Positions 1 through 4,513 of a DNA stretch of 4,530 nt are shown piece by piece. The stretch is from positions 1-4,530 of the IMG/VR virus record IMGVR_UViG_3300023488_000045. The stretch is one strand, 5' to 3'. The position numbers were made by a program, and so were the translations under genes. Positions within the stretch are counted from its first letter, which is position 1, and the number at the start of each line of letters is the position of its first letter. Under the pieces are notes generated by a model. The model made no database searches. It was not told the DNA's origin and saw only the letters and a program-made list of their open reading frames with translations. This stretch comes from a virus. Taxonomy: Duplodnaviria; Heunggongvirae; Uroviricota; Caudoviricetes.

Positions 1-116
1 GCGTCCAGCGATGTCAGTGCAATCCGTGCAAGTTCCATTTGTTCGCCACGGGTAAGTCCGTTATCAAGCGGATTTTTAATGAATAATTCGATACGTTCTT
101 TGGTTATAGCGCTCAT
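1..116 (-). CDS. hypothetical protein, 5' portion only (gene runs off the window at position 1)
   Basis: ATG at 116..114 on the minus strand, preceded by AAGGAG (128..123) with a 6-nt spacer. Frame is open to position 1, giving MSAITKERIELFIKNPLDNGLTRGEQMELARIALTSLD... Start lies 2 nt past the TGA (120..118) of the upstream gene. Absent from the ORF track because it is truncated. No family recognised. Confidence 0.4.
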   Translation of the reverse strand, partial: MSAITKERIELFIKNPLDNGLTRGEQMELARIALTSLD

Positions 117-117
117 A

Positions 118-609
118 TCACTCTCCTTTGATGCGAATGCCAGTGGCGCGTGGCACATTAACTTCCACGATGCGCACTGTTGGTTTGTACATCTCAATCG
201 CTGTCAGCCAGTCAGCTCCTGTCATGCGCTTTTCCGCATCGCCATTAGTCCACTGAACCGGTACGCCAATAGCCTTCATCGCGATTTCTATTTCCCCGGC
301 AATGGCGCTTTTTCCGCAACCAGTAAAACCAGAAACAACGACAAGAACTTCACCTTTGGCTGGTTTTATTTCCCGTGCTTCCAGTTCTGCAATGCGCTTT
401 TTGTCTGCTTCCCGTTCATCCAGTAGTGCCAGCACGGTTTCTGGTCCGGTCAGAAATTTGAAGGCGTTGAGCGCATCAATATCCACACCGTAATCTTTAA
501 GTTCCTGTTCACTTAACAAATCATCATCAACTGGCAACATTAACAGGCGTTCCATTGCTGGAGTTGCACGTTCTGCCGCATCTCGCAGTGCCTGATAGTC
601 AATTGTCAT
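118..609 (-). CDS. phage accessory protein: N-terminal coiled-coil region (KKRIAELEAREIK) plus C-terminal Walker-A/P-loop kinase-like fragment
   Basis: ORF track 118..618 (-). Preferred start is ATG 609..607, which overlaps the upstream TGA (608..606) as ATGA and has an AAGGA Shine-Dalgarno (622..618) 8 nt upstream; ATG 618 is the alternative. Protein contains a beta-strand-like EVLVVVS followed by GFTGCGKS (GxxxxGKS) and a helix-like AIAGEIEIAMKAIG, then a WTNGD loop. Only about 75 residues follow the P-loop, too few for a complete NTPase. Confidence 0.6.
   Translation of the reverse strand: MTIDYQALRDAAERATPAMERLLMLPVDDDLLSEQELKDYGVDIDALNAFKFLTGPETVLALLDEREADKKRIAELEAREIKPAKGEVLVVVSGFTGCGKSAIAGEIEIAMKAIGVPVQWTNGDAEKRMTGADWLTAIEMYKPTVRIVEVNVPRATGIRIKGE
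380..398 (-). repeat. 19-nt exact dispersed repeat tccagttctgcaatgcgct; second copy at 1542..1560
   Basis: Identical 19-mer in gene 118..609 and in Ea22-like paralog 1. Both encode KRIAELE on the minus strand within coiled-coil segments; flanks diverge. Confidence 0.85.
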
Positions 610-1250
610 TCTCGCCATCCTTCACAGTTGTAATCACTACAGCCTTCAAAATCATATGGGCTGTACTGCCAGGTTATTTTTCCGCAATGCGGACAATTCC
701 AACGCACCTTCCCGCTTCGCGACTTCTTTCTTCTGTTCTGCTCTTTCAACCAGTCAGGCATGACCAAACCTGCGCCCTGAACCATTGTTCTGCGGTTAAA
801 GTTATTGATATTGAACGTCCGGCGCTTTGCTGCATCAGCAATGGAAAATGACAACCAAACTATTCCTGGTTCGTTTTTGTTGACGACGCTAAAGATGGTC
901 GCTTTACTGAAGTCATCTGTTGGCAATCCACCGCGTTGAAGCCAGTAAACATCGTTGCCGTTCCAGCTACCTTTTTTGTAGGCCACATACTCAGTGCAAT
1001 CTGACTCAATCAGGCTTTCTGTAGGGATGTACTGGCAATCAACGTGCCACACAGCCATTGCATCCACACTATCGGCACAAACAGGCTGATCGATATCTCG
1101 CCCACAATTCCAGGCTTTTTGGGCTTCTTCCAGCGTGTAAATATGAGCGCGATCGATATCAGAACTGTAACCATTGCCGTTATGGCAATGGAATGAGGCG
1201 TTATTACCCACAGTTTCACGCAAGCACATCATGTAAAAGCGGTTATTCAC
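606..1250 (-). CDS. hypothetical Cys/Trp/His-rich protein with C-terminal zinc-ribbon-like motif (CPHC-x14-C-x4-C)
   Basis: ORF track 606..1250 (-), 214 aa. GTG start at 1250..1248 overlaps the TGA (1249..1247) of the upstream Ea22-like gene as GTGA. Strong AAGGAGG Shine-Dalgarno (1263..1257) with a 6-nt spacer. C-terminus NCPHCGKITWQYSPYDFEGCSDYNCEGW. Its stop overlaps the downstream start as ATGA. No family recognised from memory. Confidence 0.6.
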   Translation of the reverse strand: MNNRFYMMCLRETVGNNASFHCHNGNGYSSDIDRAHIYTLEEAQKAWNCGRDIDQPVCADSVDAMAVWHVDCQYIPTESLIESDCTEYVAYKKGSWNGNDVYWLQRGGLPTDDFSKATIFSVVNKNEPGIVWLSFSIADAAKRRTFNINNFNRRTMVQGAGLVMPDWLKEQNRRKKSRSGKVRWNCPHCGKITWQYSPYDFEGCSDYNCEGWRE

Positions 1251-1909
1251 TGGTTGCCTCCTTTGCGAAGCTGTTCAGCAATACTTACGCATATCTCTGC
1301 GCCTCTAATCAGCCCCGGAACGTTCTTGTTTGGCCCAACTTCACCATCAACAAAATCAATCATCGCGTTACGAGCCATATCCACCCCCTGCGCACGTACT
1401 TCAGCCAGGAGAGCGTCGGTAGCTGGGGTTTCCGTGAAGTTGTCCTCCCAACCGTAGTACTCCTGACGACAGAAGTTATTAAATTCCTTCTCCGACTGTT
1501 TAAGCGCCGCATTCTCCGCTGCCAGCGCCGTGCGTTCGCTCTCCAGTTCTGCAATGCGCTGTTTTGCGGCATCAAGTTCAATCGATAATTTTTCCAACTG
1601 CTCTTTATGCTTCTTGTATTCCTGATATGCGTGCCAGGACTGACCTTTGCGCACACTATCAGTAATATCAGTAATCTGTTCTGGTGTTAGCGTGGTCAGT
1701 GGCTGTGCTGGGAAAATCAGCACTTTCCCGGAATCCCAATCAAAACCAGCGTGAATTGACTGAACCTCAACTGAGGGTGTTGAACCAATGCTGCCAGGCG
1801 AATGAACAACGATCGTTACATCCATATCGCGACGATGGCTGTGGTTGTTGGACAAAATACGATTCAACAAAATACGATTCACCAACTCAGAAAATTTGGA
1901 GAATTTCAT
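1247..1909 (-). CDS. Ead/Ea22-like family protein (paralog 1)
   Basis: ORF track 1247..1921 (-); the track start is a TTG, and the first ATG is at 1909..1907 with a GAGG Shine-Dalgarno 6 nt upstream. Central coiled coil AKQRIAELESERTALAAENAALKQ and the motif ETPATDALLAEVRAQGV, which I recognise as typical of lambdoid Ead/Ea22-like proteins. C-terminus AEQLRKGGNQ is homologous to paralog 2. Confidence 0.7.
   Translation of the reverse strand: MKFSKFSELVNRILLNRILSNNHSHRRDMDVTIVVHSPGSIGSTPSVEVQSIHAGFDWDSGKVLIFPAQPLTTLTPEQITDITDSVRKGQSWHAYQEYKKHKEQLEKLSIELDAAKQRIAELESERTALAAENAALKQSEKEFNNFCRQEYYGWEDNFTETPATDALLAEVRAQGVDMARNAMIDFVDGEVGPNKNVPGLIRGAEICVSIAEQLRKGGNQ
1257..1263 (-). promoter_or_regulatory. 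Shine-Dalgarno AAGGAGG for the GTG-initiated gene 606..1250, embedded in the last codons of the upstream Ea22-like gene
   Basis: AAGGAGG on the minus strand, 6-nt spacer to GTG 1250. Confidence 0.6.
1259..1280 (-). repeat. conserved junction motif at the 3' end of both Ea22-like genes (second copy 2336..2357, 20/22 identical)
   Basis: ctcctttgcgaagctgttcagc versus ctcctttgcgaatctgttccgc. On the minus strand this encodes AEQ(L/I)RKG and contains the AAAGGAG Shine-Dalgarno serving the GTG start of the downstream gene in both cases (GTGA overlap at 1250 and 2328). Confidence 0.8.
1853..1882 (-). repeat. 15-bp tandem direct repeat x2 (caaaatacgattcaa / caaaatacgattcac) inside the Ea22-like paralog 1 N-terminus
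   Basis: Read directly: 1853..1867 and 1868..1882 are identical except for the last base. In frame (5 codons each), giving NRILL-NRILS in the protein. Confidence 0.8.
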
Positions 1910-1917
1910 GCGGAGCC

Positions 1918-2328
1918 TCAATATGCAAAATAGACCGTTGCCACGCCGTTATAGTGATCAAACGATACGGCGTTTACTTCATAACTGGCCGGGAGCTTCG
2001 AGCCAAGAACGTATCCGGGCCACGTTTTCCATGGAATTTCTCTATTCTCACTACCCCCATATACCGTACATCCAAGTGAACCTACAGCTTCATTAGAACG
2101 CGTGCCGCACGTTATGAATCCCAGATTTTGCTTACTGCTCTTAATGGTGATTGAGTGAACGCTGGCTGATGCATTAGCAGCACGCTGTGCCTGTTGGTTT
2201 GCGATATTCGCAGAGTTCGCAGCAGCTACAGCAGCCGTAGTCGCGGCGGTAGAGGCTACAATAGCTGCTGAAGCATGCACTTGTTGGATATTCACCAACA
2301 ATGCCGCGACAAAAATCATCTTCTTCAC
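1918..2328 (-). CDS. predicted secreted/periplasmic protein with Sec-type signal peptide, Ala/Thr-rich linker and two-Cys C-terminal domain; function unknown
   Basis: ORF track 1918..2328 (-), 136 aa. GTG start 2328..2326 overlaps the upstream TGA (2327..2325) as GTGA; AGGAG Shine-Dalgarno 7 nt upstream; alternative ATG at 2319. N-terminus [22 protein letters not shown] has a basic n-region, hydrophobic core and AXA-like cleavage site (VHA). Mature part is a low-complexity Ala/Thr/Asn stretch followed by a roughly 80-aa domain with two Cys, ending YFAY. Confidence 0.6.
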   Translation of the reverse strand: MKKMIFVAALLVNIQQVHASAAIVASTAATTAAVAAANSANIANQQAQRAANASASVHSITIKSSKQNLGFITCGTRSNEAVGSLGCTVYGGSENREIPWKTWPGYVLGSKLPASYEVNAVSFDHYNGVATVYFAY

Positions 2329-3026: not shown

Positions 3027-3320
3027 TCAGTCATTACTGATAGCGCCATAGCGTGAGCGGTAATTACGCAGGCGCGGGTCAATTTCAGGGAAGTGGGTAT
3101 ATGCGGCTTTGCGGAATGGTCGGATTGATGTCTGGTAAATTCGCTCGCGTTCTTCTTTCTCTGCAAGCCATATACAGTGGCGAAATTCCTTTTCCTCTTT
3201 CGTTTCCTGCGGTAGAGACATTATTCGATCGTAGTTTTTTTTGAATTTATCCAGCACCTCCGATACGGAATTGCCGGAACAGCGGCGCGCGTCATCCGCA
3301 CCATACAGAGGCGCTGGCAT
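3027..3320 (-). CDS. small phage protein (97 aa); tentatively Abc2-like anti-RecBCD protein on position and size only
   Basis: ORF track 3027..3320 (-). ATG 3320..3318 with a TAAGGA Shine-Dalgarno 7 nt upstream. Sits downstream of erf/ssb where P22-like phages carry abc1/abc2, and P22 Abc2 is about 97 aa as I remember it. I cannot verify sequence identity, so the product call is low confidence. Confidence 0.45.
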
Positions 3321-3343: not shown

Positions 3344-3727
3344 TCAGAATGGGATGGAATCGTCGTATACAGGAGTGTTCTGCTGGTTACTACTTTGCTG
3401 CTGCGGGCCATTTCCTGAAGCTGCAAATCCAATCTTTGCATTCAGTAATTCAAGAGTGATTGATTGACCATTTTGCCCCTGATAAACATCAACCCTGATG
3501 TTTTCTCCGGTAATTTCCACAATGCCACCTTCAACAAGAACACTACGGTAGTAATCCGCTTGCGCTCCCGGCTTGGCAAATACAACGGCGCTGTAGTTTG
3601 TCCATTCTTTCTTTTTTGTCTGGCGATCGTAATACTGAACGCCAGCACGGATGTTGAATCCGATATTTTCCACGGCCTGAAACTCTCTTGCGGGCTTGTT
3701 TAGTCTTACAGTAATCGAATGTGCCAT
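3344..3727 (-). CDS. ssb: single-stranded DNA-binding protein (phage SSB-like, short form)
   Basis: ORF track 3344..3727 (-), 127 aa. ATG 3727..3725 overlaps the erf TAA (3729..3727) as TAATG; AAGGAG Shine-Dalgarno lies inside the erf 3' end. OB-fold-like core (YSAVVFAKPGAQADYYRSVLVEGGIVEITGENIRVDVYQGQNGQSITLEL), Gly/Gln-rich linker, and acidic-aromatic tip YDDSIPF resembling the canonical SSB DDDIPF tail. Confidence 0.75.
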   Translation of the reverse strand: MAHSITVRLNKPAREFQAVENIGFNIRAGVQYYDRQTKKKEWTNYSAVVFAKPGAQADYYRSVLVEGGIVEITGENIRVDVYQGQNGQSITLELLNAKIGFAASGNGPQQQSSNQQNTPVYDDSIPF

Positions 3728-4332
3728 TAAGCAGCAGCTCCTTCTAATTCGTCTCGTCTGATGTTGTAAACGTCCTGCGCTTTGTGCTGCTCAGGTGTGC
3801 CTTCGAGCATCTTCCACGCTTTGGCGAACGCCTGTTTAAGCTCTTCTACGGTGTTTTTCTGCATTGCTGCGTCAGTGAATGCTTTTAGAACCTGTTCAGG
3901 TGTAGGTGATGGTTTTGATTGCTTTGCTGCTGCGTTCTGCTGATGTTTATGCTCGTCTGTATCTGCATCTTTCGCATCATCAATGCCGAACAAACCATTG
4001 AGGCAATACTTGCGTGCATAAGAGCTTGTAGCTCCCGTAACTTGTGCAGAATCCATTCCTTTCTTGCTTTCTTCCTCTCGTGCAAGAGCGGTTGCCGTAT
4101 GGCTGTTTTCGCCATCGGTAATAGTTGCCGTGGCTTTCACGTAATACCGATCACCAATCAACACAACTTCATCGCTGATTGATAAAAACAGACCATTCAG
4201 TAACGGCTTAACGCCTTCAAGAATATCTTCGCAGCTTCTGTATTTATATTTACCGAATGAGTTGTACTGATTCTTTGGCGCGTTCAGATTCTCCTGAATA
4301 GCTGCCAGTCTTGCGTAAAATTCTTTGCTCAT
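3727..4332 (-). CDS. erf: Erf-family single-strand annealing protein (essential recombination function)
   Basis: ORF track 3727..4362 (-), whose first codon is a TTG. Preferred start is ATG 4332..4330 (MSKEFYARLAAIQENLNAPKNQYNSFGKYKYRSCEDILEGVKPLL...), which I recognise as closely resembling the phage P22 Erf N-terminal domain. About 201 aa. Followed by a translationally coupled ssb. Confidence 0.85.
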   Translation of the reverse strand: MSKEFYARLAAIQENLNAPKNQYNSFGKYKYRSCEDILEGVKPLLNGLFLSISDEVVLIGDRYYVKATATITDGENSHTATALAREEESKKGMDSAQVTGATSSYARKYCLNGLFGIDDAKDADTDEHKHQQNAAAKQSKPSPTPEQVLKAFTDAAMQKNTVEELKQAFAKAWKMLEGTPEQHKAQDVYNIRRDELEGAAA

Positions 4333-4342
4333 ATGATTGTTC

Positions 4343-4513
4343 TCAGAATGGACATGGACCAAGGAAATAACGCTGATTTAATACTTCGGTCTTTGCCGCA
4401 TTTAAAAAGACGCGAACACCTTCACGATCGCCCTTCTGGCGATACATTAACGCCTGCTGCGTGTACATGCGCCTCTGTAACTTGCTCTCCTTCACTGTGG
4501 TTGCAAGTGACAT
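4343..4513 (-). CDS. small protein (56 aa) immediately upstream of erf, at the Arf/Kil position of P22-like phages
   Basis: Not in the ORF track (under 60 aa). ATG 4513..4511 preceded by a perfect AAGGAG (4525..4520) with a 6-nt spacer. Hand translation: MSLATTVKESKLQRRMYTQQALMYRQKGDREGVRVFLNAAKTEVLNQRYFLGPCPF, stop TGA at 4345..4343, 10 nt before the erf ATG. Identity with Arf or Kil not verified. Confidence 0.45.
   Translation of the reverse strand: MSLATTVKESKLQRRMYTQQALMYRQKGDREGVRVFLNAAKTEVLNQRYFLGPCPF

What the first reader, a model, noticed from the sequence alone, without database searches (positions are those of the whole stretch)
118..609. Coiled-coil protein ending in a truncated P-loop kinase-like fragment
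The C-terminal third has a textbook Walker-A context: hydrophobic strand EVLVVVS, then GFTGCGKS, then an amphipathic helix and a WTNGD loop, as at the N-terminus of small P-loop kinases. The protein stops about 75 residues after the P-loop, so there is no room for a Walker-B/lid region. The N-terminal half is a coiled coil sharing an exact 19-nt block (KRIAELE) with Ea22-like paralog 1. It is either a domain-shuffled fusion of an Ea22-type oligomerisation module to a nucleotide-binding remnant, or a minimal NTP-binding module. Either is atypical and could act as a decoy or sensor.
Basis: partly seen in the sequence, partly recalled or inferred. Interest (0 to 1): 0.6.

Follow-up and report, generated by a model that had tools for sequence, protein, structure and literature searches.

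The report
Mini P-loop domain on Ea22-like protein
An early prophage gene joins an Ea22-type front end to a conserved, self-contained ~68-residue module that looks like the first half of a small nucleotide kinase; this uncharacterised module also occurs alone as 71-90-residue phage proteins, far shorter than the 173-270-residue E. coli P-loop proteins it was compared with here.

Summary
Window 118-609 (minus strand) encodes a 163-aa protein annotated only as "ead/Ea22-like". Its last third reads VLVVVS-GFTGCGKS-helix-WTNGD.

The motif alone is weak evidence: 1.2% of shuffles contain one. Conservation is the real evidence. K and S of the motif are kept in all 387 complete-domain homologs, and only three change a motif glycine. 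Core dN/dS is about 0.02-0.06.

"Truncated remnant" is wrong. The C-terminal ~68 residues (G89-P156 counted from the upstream ATG; 151-354) form an autonomous, shuffled domain:
- 445 representative clusters contain it.
- The homologous stretch is always about 70-84 residues, at either end of unrelated proteins.
- In alpha- and betaproteobacterial phages it is often a stand-alone 71-90-aa protein.
- It occurs in 365 of 5,426 complete E. coli genomes.
- It has no Pfam family, and I found no literature on it.

Profile comparison places it nearest the N-terminal strand-loop-helix-strand of APS kinase (hhalign 95%, against 2% for CysN and below 1.5% for non-P-loop controls).

Most likely it is an oligomeric phosphate/nucleotide-binding head, not a kinase. 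Ligand and function remain untested.

The parts
118..609 (-). CDS of the 163-aa Ea22-like/mini-P-loop protein (stop codon at 118-120). An alternative in-frame ATG at 616-618 would give 166 aa.
   Evidence: It is identical to P0001. In four prophage contigs genes were called with the same 4-nt overlap to the upstream gene.
606..609 (-). ATGA overlap: the stop of the upstream Cys-rich gene (606-1250) overlaps the start of the target, suggesting translational coupling.
   Evidence: Read from the sequence. The same overlap, 7001/7004, is seen in L100-L103.
373..606 (-). Ead/Ea22-like N-terminal region (residues 5-82 in the 166-aa numbering), ending in a short helical linker.
   Evidence: Pfam PF13935, E 1.8e-18, 67.9 bits against a cut-off of 27. 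BLASTP to lambda Ea22 gives 35% identity over residues 3-73.
380..398 (.). 19-nt exact block (encoding KRIAELE) shared with paralog ORF 1247-1921 at 1542-1560. It sits at the module joint just upstream of the C-terminal domain.
   Evidence: DNA similarity to Stx, HK and CUS-3 phages starts at 409. The linker (A/D)(E/K)KRIAELEAREIKPAKGEV is invariant in variants with different middle parts.
151..354 (-). Conserved core of the mini P-loop domain, G89-P156 (G86-P153 in the 163-aa numbering). Inferred layout from sequence pattern: strand 1, Walker A, helix 1, strand 2, loop, helix 2, strand 3.
   Evidence: Domain limits come from 130 unique homolog segments. 445 representative clusters contain it. 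Stand-alone 71-90-aa forms exist. dN/dS is 0.02-0.06. AF2 predicts helices at 103-116 and 135-144.
307..330 (-). Walker A motif GFTGCGKS (G97-S104; K103 and S104 correspond to K100 and S101 in the 163-aa form), preceded by the hydrophobic strand VLVVVS (331-348).
   Evidence: Present in 384 of 388 homologs; K and S are never replaced in complete domains.
238..246 (-). N125-G126-D127 after strand 2, resembling the DGD of APS kinase. The first position is N or D family-wide; the GD is specific to the enterobacterial/Xanthomonas-type clade.
   Evidence: and the hhalign alignment to CysC ...YLLDGD.
208..234 (-). Family-specific motif E129-K130-x-M-T133-x-A135-D136-W137 at the start of helix 2.
   Evidence: Nearly invariant. 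It aligns, at low confidence, with CysC F-S-D-A-D-R. It is lost in the most divergent members (Erwinia phage gp23).
163..177 (-). V148-R-I-V-E152: the last strand, ending in an invariant Glu. This hhhhE pattern is a Walker-B-like candidate.
   Evidence: E152 is invariant in alignments A2, A4 and A5. It is retained even in the divergent StM171 and Erwinia jumbo-phage proteins.

Best explanation
Context (shown). The gene is a real, expressed-looking member of the mosaic Ea22-like family of early-left (pL operon) accessory genes of a P22/lambdoid prophage. It lies between the erf/ssb/abc2 recombination block and the DUF551/xis/int end.

Architecture (shown). The protein has an Ead/Ea22 N-terminal region, a short helical linker (KRIAELEAREIK), and a portable C-terminal head.

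The head (shown in part). It is an autonomous ~68-residue domain. Its first half is homologous to the strand1 - Walker A - helix1 - strand2 segment of APS-kinase/gluconate-kinase-type P-loop kinases. Its second half (EKxMTxADW helix, then a PxVxIVE strand) is family-specific. It may correspond co-linearly to CysC residues about 77-110.

Likely ligand site (inferred). All three predicted strands end in conserved polar residues: GKS after strand 1, N/D(-G-D) after strand 2, and an invariant Glu after strand 3. This is the arrangement of a phosphate/Mg2+ site at the C-terminal edge of a parallel sheet.

Proposed mechanism (inferred, untested). The module binds a phosphate-bearing ligand, most likely a nucleotide. 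With only three strands and free sheet edges it probably does so as an oligomer. In this protein the Ea22 front end would bring the modules together. In stand-alone 71-90-aa versions the module would self-associate.

What it is not. It lacks the lid, strands 4-5 and the substrate and base-binding parts of a kinase. It is therefore not expected to be an APS or sugar kinase. More likely it is a ligand-binding or switch head of an early regulatory or host-takeover protein. Which ligand it binds, and which process it affects, remain unknown.
For: Gene and context
- Searches give the gene content of the window.
- One search gives the operon order in four prophages: cIII, kil, erf, 127-aa ssb-like, abc2, DUF2737, 214-aa Cys-rich, target, DUF551 ... 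xis, int.

Mosaicism
- Close homologs differ by 28-90-residue insertions in the middle, while the C-terminal 84 residues stay almost invariant.
- The module at 94-99% identity is joined to this Ea22 N-terminus in only 32 of 97 loci.
- Ead_Ea22 is present in only 26 of 130 representative fusion proteins.
- Published work describes Ea22 proteins as a common N-terminus plus coiled coil with unrelated, portable C-terminal domains (PMC10834534).

Autonomy of the domain
- 445 representative clusters contain it, and the homologous stretch is always about 70-84 residues (query positions within 1-84).
- 126 of 148 listed proteins carry it at the C-terminus and 12 at the N-terminus.
- 239 IMG/VR contigs encode it.
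- 686 proteins were found with the distant profile. 87 of the 120 listed are at most 92 aa, and many start directly at strand 1.

Selection
- dN/dS is 0.02-0.06.
- Walker A is present in 384 of 388 homologs.
- Walker A and the terminal Glu persist in the most divergent members, where other motifs have drifted.

P-loop kinship
- Pfam scan of 38 members: AAA_16 38/38, APS_kinase 37/38 (best E 4.7e-05), AAA_18 31/38. All are P-loop clan and all fall below the curated cut-offs.
- Profile searches against the PDB list mostly P-loop proteins (with a few unrelated chains such as HasAp and OspA), all at non-significant E-values (0.006-3). Among them are the designed 'phosphate-loop protein' 6c2u and the designed ATPase 9jix.
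- hhalign: CysC 95.2%, GntK 79.9%, AroK 57%. MinD 5%, CysN 2.2%, and 17 non-P-loop proteins at most 1.3%.
- A greedy hhalign extends co-linearly to CysC 23-125.
Against: - No structural confirmation. The best AF2 models reach pLDDT about 82 and pTM about 0.7, but the other four models of each run score 52-70. DSSP finds only two or three helices and no strands.
- Foldseek against the PDB gives nothing (best E 2, TM at most 0.3).
- All Pfam, NCBIfam and PDB sequence matches are below curated or significance thresholds and cover only about 35-40 residues.
- The hhalign E-value is pairwise, not database-corrected. The alignment of the second half has low posterior confidence.
- The family-wide invariance of helix 1 (GKSAxxGEIEI) is unusual for P-loop NTPases. 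It could reflect a protein-protein interface rather than catalysis.
- No conserved neighbour or partner gene was found that would hint at a pathway.
- There is no hit in PADLOC.
- Oligomerisation and ligand binding are pure inference.
Confidence: 0.6

Rival explanations
1. The module is a P-loop-derived scaffold that no longer binds nucleotides. It would act as a protein-protein interaction head or a mimic. Examples would be copying the N-terminal face of a host kinase such as CysC, or adding a strand to a host P-loop protein. That would titrate or poison a host or defence partner, in line with the reader's 'decoy' idea.
For: - Helix 1 (GKSA-x-x-GEIEI), EKxMTxADW and Y-x-P are as invariant as the Walker A itself. 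This fits a conserved interaction surface.
- Published work suggests that the variable Ea22 C-terminal domains contact unknown host proteins (PMC10834534).
- The module has only about half of a P-loop fold, and its free sheet edges are suited to strand pairing.
- The AF2 monomer does not close into a sheet.
Against: - The residues that persist in the most divergent members are the Walker A Gly/Lys/Ser and the terminal Glu, not the putative surface motifs.
- The Lys and Ser are never substituted in 387 complete domains, which is typical of ligand chemistry.
- The host range spans alpha-, beta- and gammaproteobacteria, so a single conserved host target would be required.
Confidence: 0.2
2. The module is a true enzyme: an ATPase/GTPase or phosphotransferase. 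Its active site would be completed across subunits in a dimer or tetramer. The invariant Glu after strand 3 would act as the Walker-B or catalytic base, and N/D-G-D as Mg2+ ligands.
For: - Conserved polar residues sit at the C-terminal ends of all three predicted strands.
- An hhhhE pattern is present.
- Papers listed report that designed beta-alpha P-loop polypeptides can have helicase-like and phosphoryl-transfer activities (bioRxiv 10.1101/2020.07.30.228619; PMC10119929). I read only their abstracts.
- Full-length lambda Ea22 is tetrameric (PMC10834534 abstract).
Against: - There is no lid, no arginine-finger candidate that is conserved family-wide, and no base-recognition element.
- The GD of NGD is not conserved in the stand-alone subgroup.
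- The coiled-coil region is nearly deleted in this particular protein.
- No structural model of an oligomer could be made.
Confidence: 0.12
3. The gene is a recently truncated or decaying remnant of a full-length P-loop kinase gene fused by accident to an Ea22 fragment, with no function of its own.
For: - The protein ends 62 residues after GKS.
- Similarity to APS kinase covers only its N-terminal part.
- Prophage early regions do contain pseudogenes, for example the DUF551 fragments in L001.
Against: - The extent of the homologous stretch is the same in 445 representative clusters and in 686 further proteins.
- Stand-alone 71-90-aa genes exist.
- No longer version was found anywhere.
- dN/dS is 0.02-0.06.
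- 365 E. coli genomes carry it intact.
Confidence: 0.03
4. The Walker A motif is a chance match in an unrelated small alpha/beta or helical domain.
For: - 1.2% of shuffles of this protein contain the pattern.
- Foldseek finds no P-loop fold.
- All database matches are below threshold.
Against: - Motif conservation is near-absolute across alpha-, beta- and gammaproteobacterial phages.
- Similarity to kinases extends beyond the motif, through strand 1, helix 1 and strand 2. It is much stronger for CysC than for CysN, which also carries a Walker A.
Confidence: 0.05

Closest known systems
Adenylyl-sulfate (APS) kinase, CysC / Pfam PF01583 (N-terminal part); next nearest gluconate kinase GntK and shikimate kinase AroK
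   Same: - Strand 1, GxxGxGKS, helix 1 and strand 2 align over 35 columns with E. coli CysC residues 29-63 at 34% identity (hhalign 95.2%).
- N-G-D follows strand 2 where CysC has D-G-D.
- A greedy alignment places T-G-A-D-W opposite S-D-A-D-R and VRIVEVNVP opposite VVLTAFISP.
- APS_kinase is hit by 37 of 38 family members.
   Different: - Only about 68 residues, against 201 in CysC.
- No strands 4-5, no lid, and no C-terminal half.
- Scores fall below the Pfam cut-off (16.1 against 21.1 bits).
- Its own invariant motifs (GEIEI, EKxMTxADW, the terminal Glu) are absent from CysC.
- The GD of NGD is not family-wide.
- From my own knowledge, the ISP serine is a phospho-site in CysC; here that position reads NVP.
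Phage lambda Ea22 and the Ead/Ea22-like family (Pfam PF13935; PMC10834534, PMC7093339, PMC8614690)
   Same: - The N-terminal region matches PF13935 (67.9 bits) and lambda Ea22 residues 4-51.
- It occupies the same genomic niche, between the recombination genes and xis/int in the pL operon.
- It has the same mosaic logic of a common front end plus a swappable C-terminal domain.
   Different: - The C-terminal domain is unrelated to the lambda Ea22 CTD (hhalign 0.6%). It is not among the V1-V3 Stx-phage variants as far as the paper describes them.
- Stx-phage genes match only the N-terminal part of the query: residues 6-76 or 6-90 at 62-89% identity, or 6-122 at 33%.
- The central coiled coil is reduced to about 20 residues here.
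- The pro-lysogenic function shown for lambda and Phi24B ea22 cannot be transferred.
Designed minimal 'P-loop prototypes' (phosphate-loop protein, PDB 6c2u/6c2v; de novo ATPase PL2x4_2, PDB 9jix; papers PMC10119929 and bioRxiv 10.1101/2020.07.30.228619)
   Same: - Very short beta-alpha polypeptides carrying a Walker A loop.
- They rank among the top PDB sequence hits of the family profile, though with non-significant scores (E 0.014-0.015).
- According to the abstracts, they bind or act on phosphate ligands and nucleic acids.
   Different: - Those proteins are laboratory constructs.
- The matches are weak.
- The present family is natural, phage-borne, and has additional invariant motifs.
- No binding data exist for it.
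SIMIBI-class P-loop NTPases (dethiobiotin synthetase 3fgn, GPN-loop GTPase 5hci, SRP54 5l3v)
   Different: - E. coli BioD and MinD give no meaningful hhalign signal (0.6% and 5%).
- The resemblance is therefore probably generic strand-loop-helix geometry.

Membership tests
P-loop NTPase superfamily | Walker A motif GxxxxGK[ST] between a buried hydrophobic strand and a helix | tested here: met
   The sequence reads VLVVVS-GFTGCGKS-AIAGEIEIAMKAIG. AF2 places a helix immediately after GKS. The motif is conserved in 384 of 388 homologs.
P-loop NTPase superfamily | Walker B: an acidic residue at the end of a hydrophobic strand adjacent to strand 1 | tested here: inconclusive
   The V-R-I-V-E152 Glu is invariant. 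Its spatial position next to the P-loop could not be verified, because the models contain no DSSP strands.
P-loop NTPase superfamily | Core three-layer alpha/beta/alpha sandwich with at least five parallel strands | tested here: not met
   The conserved unit is 68 residues, with room for three strands and two helices. Stand-alone proteins are 71-90 aa. No homolog extends the fold.
P-loop NTPase superfamily | Significant sequence or profile match to an established P-loop family | tested here: inconclusive
   All Pfam and NCBIfam hits are P-loop families but below their cut-offs. Pairwise hhalign to CysC gives 95.2%, with clean negative controls.
P-loop NTPase superfamily | Structural match of a model to P-loop folds | tested here: inconclusive
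   [not shown]
P-loop NTPase superfamily | Binding or hydrolysis of a nucleoside triphosphate | not testable with these tools
   Requires purified protein.
APS kinase (PF01583, CysC) | Whole-protein score above the Pfam gathering threshold over the 152-position model | tested here: not met
   The score is 14.4-16.1 bits against a cut-off of 21.1. Only model positions 3-40 are matched.
APS kinase (PF01583, CysC) | C-terminal half with strands 4-5 and a mobile lid | tested here: not met
   The protein ends 62 residues after GKS. In the co-linear alignment the conserved core (to P156) ends opposite CysC residue ~110 of 201; the greedy alignment trails on to ~125.
APS kinase (PF01583, CysC) | D-G-D Mg2+/substrate motif after strand 2 | tested here: inconclusive
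   This protein has N-G-D. The first position is N or D family-wide. The G-D is replaced by a longer loop in the stand-alone subgroup.
Ead/Ea22-like family (PF13935) | Match to the Ead_Ea22 model above its threshold | tested here: met
   67.9 bits against a cut-off of 27, over residues 5-82.
Ead/Ea22-like family (PF13935) | Location in the early-left accessory region between the recombination genes and xis/int | tested here: met
   Shown by the window gene order, the four prophage contigs and the lambda map.
Ead/Ea22-like family (PF13935) | Central tetramerising coiled coil, as in lambda Ea22 | tested here: inconclusive
   Only about 20 helical linker residues remain. Relatives carry 28-90 extra residues at this point. 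Oligomeric state cannot be tested here.
Ead/Ea22-like family (PF13935) | Lambda-type Ea22 C-terminal domain | tested here: not met
   BLASTP aligns only residues 3-73. The hhalign of the module profile against lambda Ea22 gives 0.6%.
Known anti-phage defence components (PADLOC) | Match to any PADLOC model | tested here: not met
   No hit at E up to 1 for the protein or for its C-terminal part.

The most novel reading that the evidence does not exclude
The family may be a natural minimal P-loop protein. It would be a ~70-residue, three-stranded half of a kinase fold that still binds nucleotides or other phosphate ligands by self-association. Phages would deploy it either alone or hung on Ea22-type and many other scaffolds. 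Its role could be an early-expressed nucleotide-dependent switch, or a sponge for a nucleotide signal or metabolite. It would be a natural counterpart of the laboratory 'P-loop prototypes', and much smaller than the 173-270-residue E. coli P-loop proteins it was compared with here.
Probability: 0.3. Interest if true: 0.85.

Novelty: new variant of a known kind. Interest (0 to 1): 0.6.

Why it matters
Protein evolution. If the module really binds nucleotides with only three strands, it would show that a half P-loop fold is viable in nature. It would also give the designed P-loop prototype work a natural comparator.

Phage biology. The finding defines a widespread early-gene domain with no Pfam family. 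It occurs in about 7% of complete E. coli genomes, in P1-like phage-plasmids, and in phages of alpha-, beta- and gammaproteobacteria. It supplies specific point mutants to test (K100A, S101A and E149A in the 163-aa form).

The Ea22 family. It supports the view that these proteins are scaffolds presenting interchangeable heads. Functions measured for lambda Ea22 should therefore not be transferred to genes annotated 'ead/Ea22-like'.

Tried and rejected
- Longer intact versions. I looked with an exhaustive phmmer of the C-terminal 84 residues, a GTDB genome scan, an IMG/VR scan and a profile search. None extends the homology. Proteins that carry the module at their N-terminus continue into unrelated sequence with no Pfam match.
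- Erwinia jumbo-phage hits. They match only the P-loop half and might have been a full kinase. The protein is a 142-aa hypothetical, and the part after the module is unrelated.
- Conserved partner gene. None is shared among 27 distant loci. The translationally coupled Cys-rich upstream gene accompanies the module in only 10 of 97 loci.
- Defence-system models (PADLOC): no hit.
- Foldseek against the PDB: no hit.
- Second structure prediction. It was redone with admissible sequences and gave no better strand definition.
- Not possible with the tools or caps: a multimer prediction, a full-length model, and inspection of model coordinates.
- Literature searches for Ea22 with P-loop, Walker or ATP found nothing on this domain.
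Full report
1. What is in the window

The 4,530-base window is the leftward early (pL-type) region of a P22/lambdoid prophage. All genes lie on the minus strand. In order of transcription they are:
- a small recombinase-associated gene (4343-4513, phrog_1723)
- erf (3727-4362, PF04404)
- an ssb-like gene (3344-3727, phrog_44)
- abc2 anti-RecBCD (3027-3320, PF11043)
- an Ea22-like paralog (2325-2873)
- a signal-peptide-like gene (1918-2328, phrog_8805)
- a second Ea22-like paralog (1247-1921)
- a Cys-rich gene (606-1250, phrog_2457)
- the target gene

Four prophage contigs that encode the identical protein show the order cIII, kil, erf, ssb-like, abc2, DUF2737, Cys-rich gene, target, DUF551 ... 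xis, int. This is the niche of the lambda exo-xis region, where ea22 lies.

2. Checking the observation

The target ORF runs from 618 to 118 on the minus strand.
- The annotated start is the ATG at 607-609. It overlaps the stop of the upstream gene as ATGA, giving a 163-aa protein identical to P0001, 'ead/Ea22-like family protein'.
- The 19-nt block at 380-398 recurs exactly at 1542-1560.

Two details are imprecise.
- The protein ends 62 residues after the GKS serine, not about 75.
- The N-terminal half is mostly the Ead/Ea22 N-terminal domain (PF13935, residues 5-82, 67.9 bits). The helical linker is only about 20 residues long. Relatives carry an extra 28-90 residues at that point.

A Walker A pattern alone is not remarkable: 1.2% of shuffles of this protein contain one.

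3. The C-terminal part is a self-contained domain, not a truncation

An exhaustive phmmer search with the last 84 residues found 445 representative clusters.
- The matched stretch is always 70-84 residues (within query positions 1-84), in proteins of 110-623 aa.
- Of the 148 listed proteins, 126 carry it at the C-terminus, 12 at the N-terminus, 8 have little flank on either side and 2 have long flanks on both.
- The conserved core is G89-P156 in the 166-aa numbering (window 151-354).

A genome scan found the module in Escherichia, Serratia, Chania and Mangrovibacter. It also found it in betaproteobacteria (Methyloversatilis, Pandoraea, Sulfuriferula) and alphaproteobacteria (Methylobacterium, Mesorhizobium, Acetobacteraceae). 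An IMG/VR scan found 239 viral contigs.

In the alpha- and betaproteobacterial phages the module is frequently the whole protein.
- A profile search returned 686 proteins.
- 87 of the 120 listed are at most 92 aa, and many begin M-x-E-h-x-h-x-h-S-G-P-V-G-C-G-K-S.
- None has a Pfam domain. JGI's automatic names for them are P-loop guesses, such as 'adenylylsulfate kinase-like enzyme', 'deoxyadenosine/deoxycytidine kinase', 'uridine kinase' and 'MoxR-like ATPase'.

Prevalence and annotation:
- In E. coli the module DNA occurs in 365 of 5,426 complete genomes, with 81 places on plasmids.
- Isolated phages carrying it include phiV10, the P1-like D6 and JL22, Burkholderia BcepC6B gp37, Stenotrophomonas StM171 and an Erwinia jumbo phage. 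All are annotated as hypothetical or Ea22.

4. Conservation

- Walker A is present in 384 of 388 homologs. The exceptions are three single substitutions of a motif Gly (the one before the Lys) and one partial domain. The Lys and Ser are never replaced.
- Also invariant or nearly so are A105, G108, E109, E111, G118, W123, E129, K130, T133, A135, D136, W137, Y144, P146, V148 and E152.
- The most divergent members (StM171 and Erwinia gp23) have lost GEIEI and EKxMTxADW. They keep GxxGxGKS and the Glu at the end of the last hydrophobic strand.
- Codon analysis of the 68-codon core gives dN/dS of 0.02-0.06 for pairs with dS between 0.2 and 2.2. Some pairs are synonymously saturated with pN of only 0.02-0.07.

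5. Relationship to P-loop kinases

Every library search gives weak hits that are almost exclusively P-loop families, always over strand 1, the loop, helix 1 and sometimes strand 2.
- Pfam hits are APS_kinase and AAA_16. NCBIfam hits are APS kinases, gluconokinase, MinD/Mrp and GvpN.
- Across 38 family members, AAA_16 is hit by 38, APS_kinase by 37 (best E 4.7e-05) and AAA_18 by 31.
- PDB profile hits are weak (E 0.006-3) and mostly P-loop proteins (a few are not, e.g. HasAp, OspA). They include UvrA, gluconate kinase, deoxyguanosine kinase and shikimate kinase. They also include the designed 'phosphate-loop protein' 6c2u and the designed ATPase 9jix.

All of these are below curated or significance thresholds. 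I therefore ran pairwise profile comparisons with controls.

| Target | hhalign probability | Aligned columns |
|---|---|---|
| E. coli CysC | 95.2% (E 2.8e-08, 34% identity) | 35 |
| GntK | 79.9% | 27 |
| AroK | 57% | 18 |
| MinD | 5% | 23 |
| CysN (a P-loop GTPase) | 2.2% | 21 |
| BioD | 0.6% | 11 |
| 17 non-P-loop proteins | 0.1-1.3% | - |

The similarity to APS-kinase-type kinases therefore goes well beyond the bare motif.

With a permissive alignment threshold hhalign extends co-linearly. T-G-A-D-W falls opposite CysC S-D-A-D-R. VRIVEVNVP falls opposite VVLTAFISP. A 9-residue gap falls in helix 2. That part has low confidence and is only suggestive. It would mean the module corresponds to CysC residues about 27-110, which are the first three strands of the kinase.

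6. Structure prediction

Two AlphaFold2 runs were made.

| Run | Length and alignment | Best-model pLDDT | pTM | Other four models |
|---|---|---|---|---|
| | 84 residues, 38 sequences | 81.7 | 0.68 | 52-70 |
| | 75 residues, 62 more diverse sequences | 82.5 | 0.70 | 52-70 |

- DSSP finds the helix after GKS and the helix at ADW...Y. It finds no strands.
- Foldseek against the PDB found nothing.

I regard the fold evidence as compatible with a P-loop-like strand-loop-helix, but inconclusive. A three-stranded unit with free sheet edges may well need a partner subunit, and that could not be modelled here.

7. Mosaic architecture

- Lambda Ea22 matches only residues 3-73 of the protein. It has nothing like the module.
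- Stx-phage Ea22 genes match only the N-terminal part of the query (residues 6-76 or 6-90 at 62-89% identity; 6-122 at 33%).
- DNA similarity of many phages to the window begins at 409, beside the KRIAELE block.
- The linker ...KRIAELEAREIKPAKGEV... is constant in variants with different middle sections.
- Only 32 of 97 loci with the module have this N-terminus upstream.
- Only 26 of 130 representative fusion proteins contain Ead_Ea22. A few contain Lar-type zinc ribbons or DUF4406, and most have no known domain.
- This matches the published picture of Ea22 proteins: a shared N-terminus and coiled coil carrying unrelated, portable C-terminal domains. In that work the full-length lambda protein is tetrameric and its CTD dimeric (PMC10834534; PMC8614690). 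Those papers do not mention a P-loop head.

8. Most likely mechanism

Shown:
- It is a real gene in the early operon.
- The protein is a mosaic.
- It carries an autonomous, strongly constrained 68-residue domain.
- The first half of that domain is related to APS- and gluconate-kinase N-termini.

Inferred:
- The three hydrophobic segments form a small parallel sheet.
- Their C-terminal ends carry GKS, N/D(-G-D) and the invariant Glu, which is the geometry of a phosphate/Mg2+ site.
- The module binds a phosphate-bearing ligand, probably a nucleotide, and probably as an oligomer.
- It is not a kinase, because the lid, strands 4-5 and the substrate and base sites are missing.

Unknown:
- the ligand
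- whether the module hydrolyses it
- which host or phage process it influences

No neighbour gene, defence-system model or publication gives a lead.

The rivals are a nucleotide-independent interaction or mimic domain, a true oligomeric enzyme, a decaying remnant and a chance motif. The last two are effectively excluded by sections 3-5.

9. Novelty and score

The Ea22 part is ordinary. The C-terminal module is an undescribed family: it has no Pfam model, its PHROGs (250, 11761, 31825) have unknown function, and I found no literature on it.

If it folds and binds as inferred, it would be an unusually small natural P-loop protein. I file it as a new variant of a known kind.

Interest is moderate to high (0.6). 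The family is clearly real and widespread. It is directly testable with three point mutants. The fold and the ligand binding remain unproven.

Noticed in passing
window 1852-1881: There is a perfect 15-nt tandem duplication (ACAAAATACGATTCA twice) inside the Ea22-like paralog ORF 1247-1921. It produces a repeated NRILL/NRIL near that protein's N-terminus.
   Followed up: no
window 1918-2328 (minus strand): This 136-aa ORF (phrog_8805, unknown function) starts with a signal-peptide-like [19 protein letters not shown] followed by an Ala/Thr-rich stretch. It is wedged between two Ea22-like paralogs and is absent from the otherwise similar prophages L100-L103. It may be a secreted or envelope moron.
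   Followed up: partly
window 606-1250 (minus strand): This 214-aa Cys-rich protein (phrog_2457, no Pfam) has a zinc-ribbon-like C-terminus (NCPHCGK...C..YNC). It is translationally coupled to the target by an ATGA overlap. It accompanies the P-loop module in only 10 of 97 loci, so it is not an obligate partner.
   Followed up: yes
window 1243-1279 and 2321-2357: A 37-nt repeat (81% identity) covers the 3' ends and downstream junctions of the two other Ea22-like paralogs. These two share a different C-terminal domain (ETPATDAxLAE...AEQ[LI]RKG; phrog_368/614/492). The window therefore holds three Ea22-family genes with two kinds of head.
   Followed up: partly
window ~400-409: DNA similarity of many Stx-converting, HK and CUS-3 phages to the window begins at 409, next to the 19-nt KRIAELE block. 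This looks like a recurrent recombination joint between the Ea22 front end and interchangeable heads.
   Followed up: partly
window 1-116 (minus strand): This is the start of the next gene (MSAITKERIELFIKNPLDNGLTRGEQMELARIALTSLD...), one base after the target's stop. In related prophages this position is occupied by a 287-295-aa gene with a DUF551 domain.
   Followed up: partly
L107 2489-3865; L105 1492-1920; L106 2420-3019: Divergent copies of the module sit at the N-terminus of a 458-aa Stenotrophomonas phage StM171 protein, in a 142-aa Erwinia jumbo-phage protein, and in Burkholderia BcepC6B gp37. The Stenotrophomonas and Erwinia copies keep only GxxGxGKS and the strand-3 Glu.
   Followed up: partly
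L001 5658-6938: In E. coli S1-ISR-02-A the homologous Ea22-like gene and neighbouring DUF551 genes are annotated as pseudogene fragments. Decayed copies therefore exist alongside the intact ones.
   Followed up: no
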